Source of the DNA: a virus
Taxonomy: Duplodnaviria > Heunggongvirae > Uroviricota > Caudoviricetes
Length of the DNA stretch: 43,570 nucleotides
Reading direction: 5' to 3' (one strand)
Virus record (IMG/VR): IMGVR_UViG_2522572023_000011
Positions 18,001 through 24,000 of the stretch are shown here, piece after piece. Numbering within the stretch: the first letter of the stretch is position 1; each line of letters starts with the position of its first letter. The position numbers were made by a program.

Positions 18001-21000
18001 GGTAAGTGTCTTCTCCGGATTTTTCACAAACGCCAGCGGTACCACATAGGACACCGGTTTACCCTTCAGGCGAAGTGAAAACGTTGCAGCCACCACGCCG
18101 TTGGTACCGGATGACCAGGTGTGCTGACGCACTTCCGCCAGGAACTTAAAGCCCTTACCGGACGGAAACTGCACCTTAAACGCATACACCGTGTCATTGT
18201 CATAGGCATCACGCAGGGCGTTCTGGGCCTGATTCAGATAAAAATTACCCGACATGGAAATCTCGGACGACGCCCCCAGACCGTTGATGTTCTCCTGCTC
18301 TGTGGAGCAGAGCGTGGTCACATCAATATCCTGTTTCTGACCGGCGGTGAACTGGACTTCCTTGATGGCGCAGTCCAGGCGCAGATATTCCGCCTTATCC
18401 ATAGTTTCAGCAGTCGCCGGGGCAGATGAAATCATCACCTGCGTCAGCAGTGAGCGTTCATACAAAGCAGACATTCTGCCTCCTGATAATAAAAAACCCG
18501 CACGCGGCGGGGTATGGGTTTTGTAGAAAAAAAAGAAAAAGTCACACCGTGACCTGAAACTCCAGGGTTGCACGGTAACAGCGGTTTTCCGGAATATAGT
18601 CCTGCATTTCACTGACGGATCCCGGGGCCAGCAGCATTATGGCTTCACGGGCGTCCTGACGTATCTGACGCGCCTGCGTCACAGTCCCGGCATAAACGTC
18701 TATCTGCACCGACACTGAGGACTCCGCCTGCCCGCCCATCACGTCCGCCGACACCGATGAAATCAGGCTGAAAACCACCCACGGAAGCGCCACCGACGGC
18801 CTGCCATCCAGCAGGGGGACCACATACGGGTACACCTGCCCGCCGGCAAGATGCGCCAGATAAGGATACAAATCCGCCTCCGTCATCGTCTCAGTACCTC
18901 ATCAATGGCCCGGTTCATCCGCGCAATCGCCACCTGAGCTGCCTGTTCACTGCGCACATCAAACGCCGGGCGCACAAACGGGTGCGGTGGCATATTCACG
19001 GTCCCCATTTCCACAAACCGCCAGTAGAAAGCATTGCGCGGGTTATCCGCCTTCATGGTGTTATCGCTGTTACCGGTGTCCGGATTAACACCACGGATAT
19101 GGACACCGGATTCCATCCCGCCATCGCGGGAGCGCCGGGAAAGGACCACCACATTGCGGCGCAGTTTTCCCCTGCGTACCGGTGCCCGTGACACCACTTC
19201 TTCTTTCAGCACATTCGCACCCGCACGGGTTGCCTCACGCAGCACCCGGTTATTTTCCGCACCACTCAGAAGCTGCAAATCGCGGCTGATGTCCTCCAGC
19301 CCCGAAAAATCCAGCAGGGTTTCGATCATTTTTCCCCTCCCAGCCGACAGAGAATTTCCAGACGCCCGCCGGTCGCATCCGGCACGGGCAGCCCGACAAC
19401 GTTCAGGATCCGGTCACGCCATGGACCACTCAGCACATGAAGTCGTGACGCTGCCGTGATTTCCCGGCCGGACTGACCGCGCACCCAGATGCGGATTTCC
19501 GCCTGCGCCATTTCCGCACCGGACTGCATCCGCTCCCGGCTGCTCCTGCCACGGATATCCGCATGAATTTTCCCGCATGACACCCATTCTTCCGTCATTT
19601 CTCCGGCAGCATTACGGGTTAACACCGGCTTCAGAACACTTATCATCTGTGTCAGACGACCTGCAGATATTGCCATTCCTCCCTCCTCATAACACCGTCG
19701 GACAACGCAAATCGTAAATCAGCACGGACACAGAAAACGGCAGCTCCCCCTGAATCAGTTCTTCCCGCTCCGCAAGATCCGGATTCCGGTACAGCATCCC
19801 GGTCAGTCGCATGGCAGCCCCCTTCATCCGGGTTAATGCCTCGCCCGGGATCAGTTCACCGTCCTCACGAATCACCTTATCCCGGCTGCCCTGAATGTAG
19901 GCCAGCAGCACGGCGGTAGCCTGACGAACCTTGTCCATCAGCATGTCATCATCCGCGTCATGGTCGACACGCAGATGTGCCTTGATCTCTTCCAGTGTCA
20001 GTAATGCCGTCATTTTCCGCCTCCTGCATCCCGTCCACGTTTGGCAGCCAGGGTCCAGCCTGATGAATGAGCTTCTCCGGGTTTATCACCGGTCATACTG
20101 TTGCAGTGCCACAGCGAGCCCCCCCACGTCACCGTATCACCGGGGTGGTAGGTTTCACCGGCTCTGAACACACCGCGGTAGAGCATCACCGGCAGGGAAA
20201 ATGTTTTTTCCGTACGCTGGCCACTGCTCTGCCGGACCACCACAGTGAACGACCGTTCGCCGGTCATGCTGACGTCAATATCGGCCACCCCGTCAACCAG
20301 GCATTCCCATCCCCGCATCCCGTGCGTTTTTTCATACGCCCGCCAGAGTCCGCCCTGGTGTGTGGCATACGTGCCCCGGGGAAAGGATTTTTGATCGTCA
20401 ATGGCGGGGATTATTTCCAGTGCCGTGGCATCACGCCCGTCCTGCGGAGCCGGCAGGGCTCTCACCGCATCCAGAACAGCCTTCTGCAGAACATCGGGAT
20501 CATAGTCACGACCATCACGCGGAACAGGAATATGGCTTACCGCCTCTTTCACCATCTGTTCAAGCATCGGACGCACATCATCGGGGGTAATACTTTTGCC
20601 GTCCGCCGGTACCGGAATATTCGCGACCGCATCATTCACCGCCTTCTGCAGTACTTCCGGATCGTAATCACGACCATCACGCGGAACAGGAATATGGCTT
20701 ACCGCCTCTTTCACCATCTGCTCAAGCATCGGACGCACATCATCGGGGGTAATACTTTTGCCGTCCGCCGGTACCGGAATATTTGCGACCGCATCATTCA
20801 CCGCCTGCTTCAGTACTTCCGGATCGTAATCACGACCATCACGCGGAACAGGAATATGGCTTACCGCCTCCTTCACCATCTGTTCAAGCATCGGACGCAC
20901 ATCATCGGGGGTAATACTTTTGCCGTCCGCCGGTACCGGAATATTTGCGACCGCATCATTCACCGCCTGCTGCAGTACATCCGGATCATAATCACGACCA

Positions 21001-24000
21001 TCACGCGGAACAGGAATATGGCTTACCGCCTCTTTCACCATCTGTTCAAGCATCGGACGCACATCATCGGGGGTAATACTTTTGCCGTCCGCCGGTACCG
21101 GAATATTCGCGACCGCATCATTCACCGCCTTCTGCAGTACTTCCGGATCGTAATCACGACCATCACGCGGAACAGGAATATGGCTTACCGCCTCCTTCAC
21201 CATCTGTTCAAGCATCGGACGCACATCATCGGGGGTAATACTTTTGCCGTCCGCCGGTACCGGAATATTCGCAACCGCATCATTCACCGCCTGCTTCAGT
21301 ACTTCCGGATCATAATCACGACCGTCACGCGGAGCAGGGATATGGCTTACAGCCTCTTTCACCATCTGTTCAAGCATCGGACGCACATCATCGGGGGTAA
21401 TACTTTTGCCGTCCGCCGGTACCGGAATATTCGCAACCGCATCATTCACCGCCTGCTGCAGTACATCCGGATCATAATCACGACCATCACGCGGTACCGG
21501 AATGGCCCCCACAGCATCATCCACCATCGCCTGCAGAACCGGACGCACCTCATCCACCGTCACATGCTTCTGTAATACCGCCGACAGGGAAGTCAGTTTC
21601 TCTTCAAACGCTTGTGCCTGCGAGGCCATCTTCCCCTCAAATGTGCGCTGTAAATCCGCCAGCACCGTGGAGAATTCTTCTCCCAGTGCACGAATAATGG
21701 ACAGTTCCCGTTCCGTCATTTTCGCAGTATCCCCCTCAACATCGCTTTCACCGCACCATGCTCTGTTTCACTGATTGCCTTATTACCGTCAGATGCGCCG
21801 TCAGGCAGTTGGGCTGAAACTCTTTTCCCGGACGACGCAAACGGATCTTCACGGGCATCACGACGGGACAGCGCCTCCAGACTGTAGTTCTGCTGCTGAA
21901 GATACAGTGCATCACCGCCGGCAAGGGGCGGCAGGTTCTCACGTTTACGGGCCTCATTGGGCGTGAGAAGCGTATTTTTCACCGACTCACCCAGCGTTTT
22001 CATGCGCCGTTCGCTGTCCATTCTCAGCAGCGTGGTGACGTCAAACTCCGTACTCTCGTTTTCCCCCGTTTCCAGCGCCTCATCCAGTAACAGTTCAATG
22101 GACTCAATCAGCGTCTGCAGGCACTGGGAATAATACTGCTGCTCCAGCGCCTCCACGTTGTCACTGGAAGGTGGCTGGCCAACGCCAATCTTGTAGGCCG
22201 GGACACGGAACACCGAACAGACAATTTCAGCGGTCATCTTCAGTTGTTCCACCGTCTGCGCATCCACCGGTGAAAACGTCGTGGGGTTGTATTTTGCCCC
22301 GTTGCTCAGAATGGCCGTTTTCCCCGCATTTTCGCCGGTATACCCGCTGTCCCAGTTGCTCTTCAGTTTTTTCGCATTTTCTTCCGTAATACTGCCGGGG
22401 ATCTCAATCACCCCGGACGGCCTGCCGCCATTTCTGAAAAAAGACGTCGAATTTTCCTGAATATGATGCCCCTGCGTGGCCGCCAGCCCGGCAGCATACA
22501 CCGGCGGCAGCCCCACAAGCGGATGAAAAAAACAGTTAAACCGGTCGTGGATCACTTCCCTGGCAGGCACCGTCACCGCCTCCGTGATCCCGCAGTTCCG
22601 GTCCGGTGTAATGCGATAGAACACCTCGCCGTCATCCGCCACCAGAGGTTCAACCCGGCTCCAGTCCAGAATACGCAGTTCTTTGATCTGCCCCCGGGAG
22701 TTACGGATTTTCAGCACCACCGTATTGCCGTGACGCAGTTTGGCGTTCAGCCACAGTTCAAAAAACTGGATACGATTCTGCTGTGCATTGGGACGACGAC
22801 AGAGACGGGCAATATCCCCCTGCCGTTTTTCACGGCGGATCCCCTGTGTATCCGTCTGCATCAGGCGCAGCCGCATTTTGGCGATATCCTGGGATATCAG
22901 CGAAATGCAAGAAAACACCGCATGAAAGGAGAGGACACTTTCCGGATCGGCTTTCACACCCTGCTGCCAGGCGCCGGCAAAGGGCTCAACCACCGCCTGA
23001 AACAGGCTGGTCCAGCCCACCTCTTTTACATCACGTCCTGATTTCTGGTTTTTTCGGGTTCGTCGCAAAAAGTTCCACATTCGCTATGCTCCGCATCATG
23101 TTTCTTTTTCTGACCCGCCGGACGTCGCGCTGTGATGTACTCCGCCTTCCTCAGGCGAACCAGCACCTCCGCACACGGCTGTGCGACATCACGGATATCC
23201 CCGGCCCGGCCATCATGCGTGCCCTGCAGATATCGGATCTTTGCCATAACCTGTTACGGGAGGCGCACGCCTCCCGTCCTCCTTATCAGACTCAGCCGCC
23301 GGACGCACTGCCGTAGTTCACTCCGGTGATCACCGCCACCGCCGCGGTACGGCGACGACGCCAGTTGATCCAGCGCTCCGCACGGATGGCCACACTGCCT
23401 GTCTGGAACATGGAAACCAGCTCCACCGGCGACGGTGTGGTGCTGTCGCCGCCCGGCTCAGACTGCATTTCCAGTGACGCTTCACGGGACATATCCACTG
23501 CCACACCGCCGTCATCCGCCAGATAAATATCCGGTGCATTCACCAGTACCAGCTGGTCACCCACGTACTGGGAGACAATCACCGGAAGCCCCTGAAAGGT
23601 CCCGCCCAGCAGGGTCATGTCCGGATATTCCTTCTGACCCAGCGCATTTTTACGCATGGACAGCGCCAGGGCATTCGTGCTGGACATCAGCCAGACAGCA
23701 CCAGTGGGCTGCAGGTTTGCCGTCACAAACTGGCCAAACGCGGCCTCGGCATCCGCATCCGGGTTACCGGTTGATGCCGTGCCCTTCACATCATGGGTGA
23801 TGGACGCCGGGGAGACATCTGCCACTGCAGCTTTTTTCGGGTCCACAAAGTCTGTGTCCAGACGCGCCACCACCGCTTCTGCCAGCGCATTACGGACCAG
23901 TGCATCAGCTGCCGGACTGGAAAAGCGGATCAGCTCTTCCGTCAGTACCGCAATGGCCGACACCTTCGCATGACTGAAGGTGATGGACTCAAAATCAAAC

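What the first reader, a model, noticed from the sequence alone, without database searches (positions are those of the whole stretch)
20430..21560. Seven near-perfect 162-bp in-frame tandem repeats in a 569-aa protein between portal and the head-tail connector
The DNA repeat period is exactly 162 bp (54 aa), with anchor strings recurring at 20511, 20673, 20835, 20997, 21159, 21321 and 21483. Each 54-aa unit is itself two roughly 27-aa sub-repeats (IPVP-A/R-DG-K/R ...). Such high DNA identity between units implies recent expansion and a length that can vary by recombination or slippage. The gene sits where HK97-like phages normally have protease and capsid genes, so it is likely a virion (head-associated) protein with a modular repeat stalk and a distinct C-terminal domain.
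Basis: seen in the sequence. Interest (0 to 1): 0.65.

Follow-up and report, generated by a model that had tools for sequence, protein, structure and literature searches.

The report
Variable-length repeat protein coupled to phage portal
The repeats are real and form the length-variable middle of an intact, widespread but uncharacterised phage head-module protein encoded directly after the portal gene, which public annotation wrongly treats as the broken tail of a portal gene.

Summary
A 162-bp in-frame tandem array (TRF 20479-21503, 6.3 copies, 95% matches) lies in a 569-aa ORF on the minus strand (20010-21719), between the portal and head-tail adaptor genes of a lambdoid prophage of E. coli O145:H28 RM13516. 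It has six full 54-aa units, a seventh half unit and degenerate flanking halves. Copy number is truly polymorphic: otherwise identical O145 alleles carry 3, 4 or 6 full units.

The protein (called X here) belongs to a large family with no curated model. It has an N-terminal long helix, a variable number of acidic helix-plus-IPxPxDG-loop modules, and a highly conserved C-terminal beta domain ending in a CBM5/12-like fold. In about 70 species the gene directly follows the portal gene, with stop/start overlap.

RefSeq calls this locus one frameshifted portal pseudogene. That reading is wrong: the split form (G5 tract) is ancestral, and the fused form (G6 tract, e.g. phage 2851) is derived.

X is probably a low-copy, fibre-like protein at the portal vertex. 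Long-lived fusions to the portal C-terminus favour tethering on the inner (crown) side. An external neck or head fibre remains a serious rival. Virion presence and location were not tested.

The parts
20010..21719 (-). Gene X: 569-aa repeat protein (61.9 kDa, pI 4.8). Its start ATG (21717-21719) overlaps the portal stop codon.
   Evidence: ORF list; composition; homologues; RefSeq includes it in a 'frameshifted' portal pseudogene.
21564..21719 (-). N-terminal long alpha-helix, aa 1-52 (MTERELSIIRALGEEF...). Proposed docking or oligomerisation element.
   Evidence: AlphaFold2 helix 3-52 with pLDDT about 81-91; conserved N-terminus among Enterobacterales homologues.
20532..21503 (-). Six full 162-bp (54-aa) tandem units, aa 73-396. 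Each unit is a 13-residue and a 17-residue helix separated by 12-residue IPxPxDGxxxxP loops. Acidic (repeat region pI 4.5).
20457..20531 (-). Seventh, partial half unit, aa 397-421, 72-80% identical to the full units.
20013..20444 (-). Conserved C-terminal domain, aa 426-569, with two GG(L/S)W motifs and conserved Cys473 and Cys539. Beta-rich; aa 473-565 modelled at pLDDT about 90.
   Evidence: Alignments A1-A3; AlphaFold2; 50-70% identity across genera, equal to or above portal and MCP.
20025..20180 (-). CBM5/12-like module, about aa 514-565.
21731..21737 (-). GAGGGGG: Shine-Dalgarno-like element for X, inside the last portal codons. Its G5 tract (21731-21735) is G6 in relatives, which fuses portal and X.
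21716..23080 (-). HK97-type portal gene (454 aa) ending ...MLRGILRK*. Its stop TGA (21716-21718) overlaps the ATG of X (ATGA).
   Evidence: exact protein present as AHG15970.1 'phage portal protein'; the C-terminal motif M(L/I)RG(L/I/F)L.K* is conserved in other genera.
19687..20013 (-). Head-tail adaptor gene (Phage_connect_1 type). Its ATG overlaps the stop codon of X (4-nt overlap, 20010-20013).
23292..25229 (-). Prohead protease-major capsid protein fusion gene (645 aa), upstream of the portal in the same module.
   Evidence: Peptidase_S78 plus Phage_capsid in the homologous gene of L002.

Best explanation
The array encodes the length-variable stalk of X, an intact, separately translated protein of the phage head module.

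Shown:
- X starts at an ATG overlapping the portal stop codon and ends overlapping the adaptor start codon.
- This arrangement, with a purine-rich ribosome-binding site inside the last portal codons, is conserved across many genera. X is therefore a real gene, not the tail of a broken portal gene.
- X has a roughly 50-residue N-terminal helix, then acidic helix-plus-Pro/Gly-loop modules whose number changes by unequal recombination or slippage between near-identical 162-bp units, then a slowly evolving beta domain ending in a CBM5/12-like fold.

Inferred:
- X is a low-copy, slender, oligomeric (probably trimeric) fibre at the portal vertex.
- Its N-terminal helix is tethered to the flexible C-terminal tail of the portal. 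That is the position at which X is covalently fused in two independent lineages.
- In every solved portal the C-terminus is the crown facing the capsid lumen (textbook knowledge, not tested here). I therefore place X on the lumenal side, in the manner of SPP1 gp7 / Mu F minor head proteins or the P22 portal barrel.

Most speculative step: the fibre leaves through the portal and tail channel at infection, after proteolytic release where it is fused. Its CBM5/12-like head then binds the chitin-like glycan backbone of peptidoglycan. That would explain why the domain is conserved across hosts with unrelated surfaces. The repeat number would set the reach of the fibre.
For: Real gene:
- Homologues number 5,532 cluster representatives at E<=1e-3 and 638 at E<=1e-30. 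Of the 149 representatives checked, 147 keep the C-terminal domain and 148 lack a portal domain.
- The order protease/MCP, portal, X, adaptor holds in about 70 of 80 species loci, from Enterobacterales to Rhizobiales and a Clostridia MAG.
- The X start overlaps the portal stop (ATGA, ATGnnTGA or TGATG), with AGAGGA or AAGGAG upstream.
- The window's portal end, MLRGILRK*, matches the conserved M(L/I)RG(L/I/F)L.K*. The fused reading, MFRGDTEKM, does not.
- dN/dS of the C-terminal domain is 0.20.

Link to the portal:
- A G6 tract fuses portal and X in 41 IMG/VR loci, against 76 with G5, and in phage 2851, whose EP2851_54 is 859 aa.
- An independent Pantoea-lineage fusion is kept intact across 31% amino-acid divergence (L144 vs P0226, 68.7% identity over 1,240 aa). 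No good ribosome-binding site precedes the internal Met there.
- X in fused alleles is under the same constraint, dN/dS 0.17.
- MuF/gp7-type minor head proteins are likewise encoded directly after the portal gene and bind the portal inside the capsid (PMC5576092).

Fibre nature:
- The model shows a long N-terminal helix followed by alternating 13- and 17-residue helices and 12-residue loops.
- Of 149 family representatives, 68 contain at least four consecutive GXY collagen-like triplets.
- The closest viral fold matches are collagen-repeat and tail-fibre-like phage proteins.

C-terminal domain:
- CBM5/12 fold.
- It is as conserved as the portal and MCP, and more conserved than the adaptor.

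Length variation: alleles with 3, 4 and 6 full units sit on identical flanks. Family-wide, the half-unit motif count ranges from 0 to 19.
Against: - No experiment or proteome places X in virions, and none was found for any homologue.
- Collagen-like stalks, CBM5/12 tips and the SAYxxAxxxGFxGxxxEW motif seen in some relatives are typical of external fibres. I know of no lumenal capsid protein with such modules.
- A fused X cannot be ejected unless it is cleaved, and no cleavage site was identified.
- The E. coli fusion could be a tolerated mutation at a slippery G tract in largely cryptic prophages. The infectivity of phage 2851 rests on my memory of Strauch et al. 2008, which could not be read here.
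- The stalk is modelled at low confidence (pLDDT 40-60), and the oligomeric state was not predicted.
- The window's own CBM_5_12 score is below Pfam's cut-off.
Confidence: 0.4

Rival explanations
1. X is an external fibre. Trimers attach by the N-terminal helix to the neck (adaptor or portal clip) or to the capsid surface, in the manner of T4 fibritin whiskers, phi29 head fibres or lactococcal neck-passage structures. They display the CBM5/12-like domain as an accessory glycan-binding adhesin, and the repeat number tunes reach. The portal fusions are then tolerated loss-of-display mutants, or they still yield free X by internal initiation.
For: - CBM5/12 fold.
- Collagen-like GXY runs in 68 of 149 relatives, and a tail-fibre-type SAYxxAxxxGFxGxxxEW tail in some.
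- Best viral fold matches are collagen-repeat and tail-fibre-like proteins.
- The gene abuts the adaptor gene with stop/start overlap.
- Stalk length is very variable, as in other phage fibres.
- In E. coli fused alleles the ATG and the GGGGGG ribosome-binding element are retained.
Against: - The C-terminal domain evolves as slowly as the portal and capsid proteins, across hosts with unrelated surfaces. This is unlike receptor-binding tips.
- The Pantoea-lineage fusion has stayed intact and constrained through 31% divergence, and it lacks a good internal ribosome-binding site.
- X is equally constrained in fused E. coli alleles.
- The portal C-terminus lies inside the capsid in all solved portals (own knowledge).
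Confidence: 0.3
2. X is an assembly factor that is absent from, or removed from, the mature virion. It would act as a portal chaperone or scaffold-like protein that helps incorporate the portal into a procapsid whose capsid protein is fused to its protease.
For: - Elongated, acidic, helical N-terminal two-thirds.
- Position in the head-assembly module and coupling to the portal.
- The module has no separate scaffolding gene.
Against: - A highly conserved CBM5/12-like beta domain and collagen-like segments are not scaffold features.
- The helical part varies about 20-fold in length, which fits poorly with a dimension-setting scaffold.
- HK97-type modules usually scaffold through the capsid protein's own N-terminal region (own knowledge).
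Confidence: 0.1
3. RefSeq's reading: the locus is a single long portal gene inactivated by a frameshift, and the 569-aa ORF is only its remnant.
For: PGAP marks 18640..21710 of L120 as 'phage portal protein, frameshifted'. Fused full-length ORFs exist.
Against: - The split arrangement, with overlapping stop/start and a conserved portal C-terminus, is the rule in about 70 species. Only one of 149 family representatives is fused.
- G5 loci outnumber G6 loci, 76 to 41.
- The sequenced phages BP-4795, JLK-2012 and FSL SP-016 all have the split form.
- X is under purifying selection.
Confidence: 0.04
4. The unusually high copy number in this window (six full units) is an assembly expansion artefact.
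For: Only two records hold this length. Short-read assemblies commonly break or collapse in this array, giving hundreds of 'partial' proteins at contig ends.
Against: - The genome was closed with PacBio long reads and optical maps.
- RM12761, assembled independently, agrees.
- The units are distinguishable mosaics rather than identical copies.
- An IMG/VR locus also has a 569-aa allele.
Confidence: 0.05

Closest known systems
SPP1 gp7 / Mu F (MuF superfamily) minor head proteins
   Same: The gene lies immediately downstream of the portal gene. The protein is a low-copy portal-binding head protein inside the capsid. The C-terminal 'cargo' domain varies between members (PMC5576092).
   Different: No sequence similarity: no PF04233 or PF06152 hit. 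X has a tandem-repeat stalk and a CBM5/12-like end instead of a MuF domain, and the module is HK97-like with the capsid gene upstream of the portal.
P22-type portal barrel (C-terminal helical extension of the portal into the capsid)
   Same: In the fused alleles, a long helical segment extends from the portal C-terminus.
   Different: Here the extension is normally a separate polypeptide. It carries repeats and a globular beta domain. The barrel comparison rests on my own knowledge and no structural comparison was possible.
T4 fibritin (wac) and phi29 gp8.5 head fibre
   Same: A segmented helical stalk interrupted by loops. The protein is accessory and of variable length, and the gene lies next to neck genes. 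This is architecture only.
   Different: No homology was detected by sequence or by fold search. Trimer state and external location were not tested. The tip is CBM5/12-like, not a foldon.
CBM5/12 chitin-binding modules (Serratia ChiB, Streptomyces ChiC, Vibrio chitin deacetylase) and CBM-tipped collagen-like phage fibres
   Different: The window protein scores below the Pfam cut-off. The ligand is unknown. The domain is preceded by a second, degenerate copy and a beta-sheet segment specific to this family.

Membership tests
HK97-type phage portal protein (PF04860 / TIGR01537), the name under which this ORF is annotated | Presence of the portal domain | tested here: not met
   There is no PF04860 hit in the 569-aa ORF. 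The portal domain is in the upstream 454-aa ORF. PHROG 2271 and 1289 carry the label 'portal protein' only because of fused or mis-named members.
MuF / SPP1 gp7 minor head protein superfamily | Gene immediately downstream of the portal gene | tested here: met
   criterion taken from PMC5576092.
MuF / SPP1 gp7 minor head protein superfamily | MuF domain (PF04233 or PF06152) detectable by sequence | tested here: not met
   No such hit at E<=1 in Pfam or in relatives.
CBM5/12 carbohydrate-binding module | Sequence match above Pfam's gathering score (26.2 bits) | tested here: inconclusive
   Window protein scores 19.6 bits. Relatives score 27.3 (P0273), 26.6 (P0271), 25.1 and 24.8 bits.
CBM5/12 carbohydrate-binding module | Characteristic small beta fold | tested here: met
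CBM5/12 carbohydrate-binding module | Binds chitin, cellulose or a related glycan through exposed aromatic residues | not testable with these tools
   W532, W537 and W555 are invariant or nearly so, but their exposure and any binding could not be assessed.
Trimeric phage fibre (collagen-like or segmented coiled coil) | Trimer-forming stalk elements (GXY runs or heptad coiled coil) | tested here: inconclusive
   Of 149 relatives, 68 have at least four consecutive GXY triplets. The window protein has none, only single DG-x-D turns. The monomer model of the stalk has low confidence, and no multimer prediction was available.
Variable-number tandem repeat locus | Copy-number differences between otherwise near-identical alleles | tested here: met
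   Alleles with 3, 4 and 6 full units have 0 differences in the flanks. Relatives form a 54-aa length ladder from 245 to 569 aa.
Programmed ribosomal frameshift joining portal and X | Slippery site conserved among relatives that keep the two-ORF arrangement | tested here: not met
   Other genera have AGAGGA or AAGGAG in place of the G tract. A -1 slip on AGG_GGG_A would recreate the fusion protein, but nothing indicates it is used.
Frameshifted pseudogene (RefSeq call) | Disruption relative to the ancestral intact form, and relaxed constraint | tested here: not met
   The split form is the conserved state. dN/dS is 0.20.

The most novel reading that the evidence does not exclude
X defines a widespread, so far unrecognised class of portal-tethered fibres that sit inside the capsid on the portal crown. 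They would be expelled through the tail at infection and anchor to peptidoglycan through a CBM5/12-like head. In E. coli a G5/G6 tract in the ribosome-binding site would switch the fibre between free and covalently portal-bound states, with at least 7 changes inferred on a local tree.
Probability: 0.15. Interest if true: 0.8.

Novelty: new variant of a known kind. Interest (0 to 1): 0.5.

Why it matters
- **Annotation.** RefSeq flags this and similar loci as frameshifted portal pseudogenes (seen in three O145 genomes). Homologues carry inconsistent names, such as 'portal protein', 'gp6-like head-tail connector' and 'Carbohydrate binding domain'. The evidence here says X is a distinct, intact gene family that deserves its own model.
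- **Genomics of EHEC.** The gene occurs in 1,247 of 5,426 complete E. coli genomes, often several times per genome. Its 162-bp array breaks short-read assemblies, producing hundreds of 'partial' proteins at contig ends. It also varies among closely related outbreak-lineage strains. It is therefore both a source of assembly error and a possible long-read typing marker for lambdoid and Stx prophages.
- **Phage biology.** A conserved, portal-coupled protein with a glycan-binding-type domain and recurrent portal fusions is a concrete, testable candidate for a new portal-vertex component in a very common HK97-like head module.

Tried and rejected
- **Pfam hits to TetR_C_35, FliG_N, DUF4244, DUF7713 and others.** None has a significant individual stretch. 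They are summed weak matches to seven near-identical units. The precomputed PF28083 'QatB' hit is faint and of the same kind. All rejected.
- **NCBIfam.** Only far-sub-threshold hits.
- **PADLOC.** Not searched, as not relevant.
- **PDB sequence search.** Nothing below E=0.68.
- **Literature.** Searches for the repeat, for portal extensions and for virion proteomics of BP-4795 or 2851 found no paper on this protein. The phage 2851 paper is not held.
- **Programmed frameshift at the G tract.** Considered because a -1 slip would recreate the fusion. Rejected as a conserved mechanism because the tract is absent in other genera.
- **Single recent duplication of a 3-unit (486-bp) block.** Suggested by the D-QQ / E-KQ / E-QK protein pattern occurring twice. 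The DNA does not clearly support it: units 1 vs 4 and 2 vs 5 are no closer than other pairs. The array looks like a mosaic, with unit 2 resembling a different prophage lineage.
- **The 502-aa ORF on the plus strand (20067..21575).** Dismissed as an antisense by-product of a periodic sequence. Homology and the synonymous-site pattern both belong to the minus-strand frame.
- **First dN/dS attempt on the C-terminus.** Invalid because the ends were out of register. Redone with a motif anchor.
- **Full-length AlphaFold model.** Too uncertain in the stalk (pLDDT 40-60) to be used for fold search.

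
Full report
**1. Observation**

Tandem Repeats Finder reports a single array at 20479-21503, with period 162, 6.3 copies, 95% matches, no indels and score 1861. An independent repeat search gives six 300-nt copies at exactly 162-nt spacing.

The array lies inside a 569-aa ORF at 20010..21719 on the minus strand. In protein register there are six full 54-aa units (aa 73-396, window 20532-21503). Their DNA identity is 94.4-100%, and units 3 and 6 are identical. A seventh half unit follows (aa 397-421, 72-80% identity), and there are degenerate half units on both sides. 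Each unit consists of two related halves of 25 and 29 aa, both beginning IP(V/A)PxDG.

Only 14 of 162 nucleotide positions vary among the six units. Ten of those are synonymous in the minus-strand frame.

The window is the chromosome of E. coli O145:H28 RM13516 (100% identity), which was closed with PacBio reads and optical maps. The independently assembled sister isolate RM12761 has the same gene length.

**2. Surroundings**

The gene sits in the late operon of a lambdoid prophage integrated next to ssrA. On the minus strand the order is:
- terminase small and large subunits;
- a protease-major capsid fusion gene (23292..25229);
- a small ORF;
- the portal gene (21716..23080, 454 aa);
- the repeat gene;
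- the head-tail adaptor (19687..20013), head closure, gp10-like and tail completion genes;
- the major tail protein, the tail chaperones and the tape measure gene.

The repeat gene therefore does not replace the protease and capsid genes. It is an additional gene. Its ATG overlaps the portal stop codon (ATGA, 21716-21719), and its own stop codon overlaps the adaptor ATG (20010-20013).

**3. The portal connection**

RefSeq annotates portal plus repeat ORF as one 'phage portal protein, frameshifted' pseudogene. Many E. coli proteins do contain a portal domain followed by these repeats and the same C-terminus.

The difference is one base. The window, and phages such as Stx2a_WGPS2, JLK-2012 and PPompW, have AGGGGGAT (G5). 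Fused relatives, including phage 2851 (859-aa EP2851_54), have AGGGGGGAT (G6). IMG/VR holds 76 G5 and 41 G6 loci. On a neighbour-joining tree of 630 nt of flanking sequence, at least seven state changes are needed. Two identical flank haplotypes carry both states. Recombination and homopolymer sequencing errors may inflate this count.

**4. Which state is ancestral?**

A profile-free HMMER search of 1.8 billion cluster representatives found 5,532 relatives at E<=1e-3. Among the top 149 checked, 147 keep the C-terminal domain and only one contains a portal domain.

In one genome per species (GTDB), the order protease/MCP, portal, X, adaptor recurs in about 70 of 80 loci. These span Enterobacterales, Pseudomonas, Burkholderiales, Rhizobiales, Sphingomonadales and a Clostridia MAG. 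In nearly all of them X is a separate ORF whose start overlaps the portal stop (ATGA, ATGnnTGA or TGATG). A purine-rich AGAGGA or AAGGAG lies 5-12 nt upstream.

In Enterobacterales the portal ends M(L/I)RG(L/I/F)L.K*. The window's G5 reading (MLRGILRK*) fits this motif. The G6 reading (MFRGDTEKM...) destroys it. The E. coli G tract is thus the local version of X's ribosome-binding site. The split form is ancestral and the fusion is derived, so the 'pseudogene' label is not supported.

X is under purifying selection in both forms. For the C-terminal domain, dN/dS is 0.20 in G5 alleles and 0.17 in G6 alleles. For the portal tail it is 0.10 in both.

**5. The protein**

- **Composition.** X is 61.9 kDa with pI 4.8. 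The repeat region has pI 4.5.
- **Model.** AlphaFold2, run with a 37-sequence alignment, gives a confident 50-residue N-terminal helix (pLDDT about 81-91). After it come alternating 13- and 17-residue helices separated by 12-residue IPxPxDGxxxxP loops, with low tertiary confidence (pLDDT 40-60). A confident beta domain covers aa 473-565 (pLDDT about 90).
- **Viral fold matches.** Against viral models, the best matches are phage 'collagen triple helix repeat', ChiC_BD and tail-fibre-like proteins.
- **Family variation.** The number of half-unit motifs ranges from 0 to 19. Of 149 representatives, 68 contain runs of at least four GXY triplets. Some end in collagen-like tails or in a SAYxxAxxxGFxGxxxEW motif, which I recognise from tail fibres (own knowledge).
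- **Conservation.** The C-terminal domain is as conserved as the portal and capsid proteins, and more conserved than the adaptor. In Pseudomonas loci, for example, identities are 60% for the X domain, 50% for the portal, 50% for the MCP and 34-41% for the adaptor.
- **Database status.** No Pfam or NCBIfam model covers the family. PHROGs 1289 and 2271 call it 'portal protein'. NCBI names vary between 'portal protein', 'gp6-like head-tail connector' and 'Carbohydrate binding domain'.

**6. Copy-number dynamics**

In O145 strains, alleles whose 216-nt 5' part and 519-nt 3' part are identical to the window carry 3 full units (RM11626, 407 aa) or 4 (RM9872, 461 aa), against 6 here. IMG/VR relatives form a ladder of 245, 299, 353, 407, 461, 515 and 569 aa, with modes at 407 and 353. 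Draft assemblies may collapse repeats, so that distribution is approximate.

The window's array is a mosaic of distinguishable units. Unit 2 resembles units of another prophage lineage, which points to unequal or inter-prophage recombination rather than one clean duplication.

**7. How it most likely works**

Shown:
- X is an intact, separately encoded member of a conserved head module.
- Its reading frame overlaps those of both the portal and the adaptor genes.
- Its repeats form a length-variable helix-loop stalk between an N-terminal helix and a conserved CBM5/12-like domain.

Inferred:
- Low copy number, from the coupling to a 12-copy protein and from the fusions.
- A fibre-like, probably trimeric nature, from the collagen-like relatives.
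- Docking of the N-terminus at the portal C-terminal tail, from two independent fusions.

The Pantoea-lineage fusion carries the most weight. L144 and P0226 are 68.7% identical over 1,240 aa, and both are intact. No good ribosome-binding site precedes the internal Met, so the fusion protein itself appears to be functional.

In solved portals the C-terminus forms the crown inside the capsid (own knowledge). This favours a lumenal, portal-tethered fibre, analogous in position to SPP1 gp7 / Mu F proteins and in geometry to the P22 portal barrel. The slow evolution of the C-terminal domain across hosts with unrelated surfaces points to a universal partner. One candidate is another virion component. 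The other is the peptidoglycan glycan backbone, which X could reach only if the fibre is expelled through the tail at infection. That last step is speculative.

I give this reading 0.40. The main rival, at 0.30, is an external neck or head fibre acting as an accessory adhesin. It fits the module types better (CBM tip, collagen, tail-fibre motif) but fits the fusions and the conservation pattern worse. The remaining alternatives are an assembly-only factor (0.10), RefSeq's pseudogene reading (0.04) and a copy-number artefact (0.05).

**8. Comparison with known systems, and novelty**

X is not a portal protein and not a MuF protein by sequence. Its last module has the CBM5/12 fold. Its overall design resembles known phage fibres only in architecture.

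The sequence itself is common in databases: it occurs in 1,247 of 5,426 complete E. coli genomes. I found no characterisation of it. I class it as a new variant of a known kind, namely a portal-adjacent accessory virion protein or fibre.

Interest is moderate. The repeat alone is ordinary. The mis-annotation, the breadth of the family, the recurrent portal fusions and the G-tract polymorphism make it a worthwhile and easily testable target.

Noticed in passing
window 698-1060 (+); 1-483: An ssrA tmRNA gene (tag ANDENYALAA) and smpB lie at the left end. The prophage sits directly beside ssrA, a classical integration site.
   Followed up: partly
window 4402-5615 (coordinates mapped from L120 36105-37318): An IS3-family transposase with its own annotated programmed frameshift splits the prophage side tail-fibre gene into N-terminal and C-terminal parts. 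This prophage may therefore be defective for host recognition.
   Followed up: no
window 2173-2823 (mapped from L120 38897-39547): The type III effector gene nleG7 is carried as cargo at the tail-fibre end of the prophage.
   Followed up: no
window 17369-17381, minus strand: The tail assembly chaperone ORF (17369..17791) ends ...AGA AAA AAG TAG. A canonical A_AAA_AAG -1 slippery heptamer sits just before the stop, upstream of the Phage_tail_T ORF (17064..17345). This is a lambda G/GT-type frameshift.
   Followed up: partly
window 17758-18612, minus strand: The major tail protein carries a C-terminal immunoglobulin-like domain (I-set, Ig_2 and Ig_3 hits on the homologous gene of L002). This is a second potential surface-display module on the same virion.
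   Followed up: no
window 20067-21575, plus strand: A 502-aa ORF lies antisense to the repeat gene. It is an open frame created by the periodic sequence and has no support as a gene.
   Followed up: partly
window 23026-23247, minus strand: A small 73-aa ORF between the capsid and portal genes overlaps the portal start. It is annotated as hypothetical in all relatives examined (L001, L120, L203, L205). Function unknown.
   Followed up: no
protein hits P0001-P0120: Most E. coli database entries for this gene are 'partial' proteins at the ends of 1.5-6 kb contigs, and one cluster has 1,947 members. Short-read assemblies systematically break inside the 162-bp array.
   Followed up: partly
L144 2686-6429; P0226: A Pantoea-associated lineage has a 1,240-aa portal-X fusion. 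Its stalk is built from a different repeat (LPxPEPLPDI plus a helix, more than 20 copies) but its C-terminal domain is the same. The stalk repeat type has therefore been replaced while both ends were kept.
   Followed up: partly
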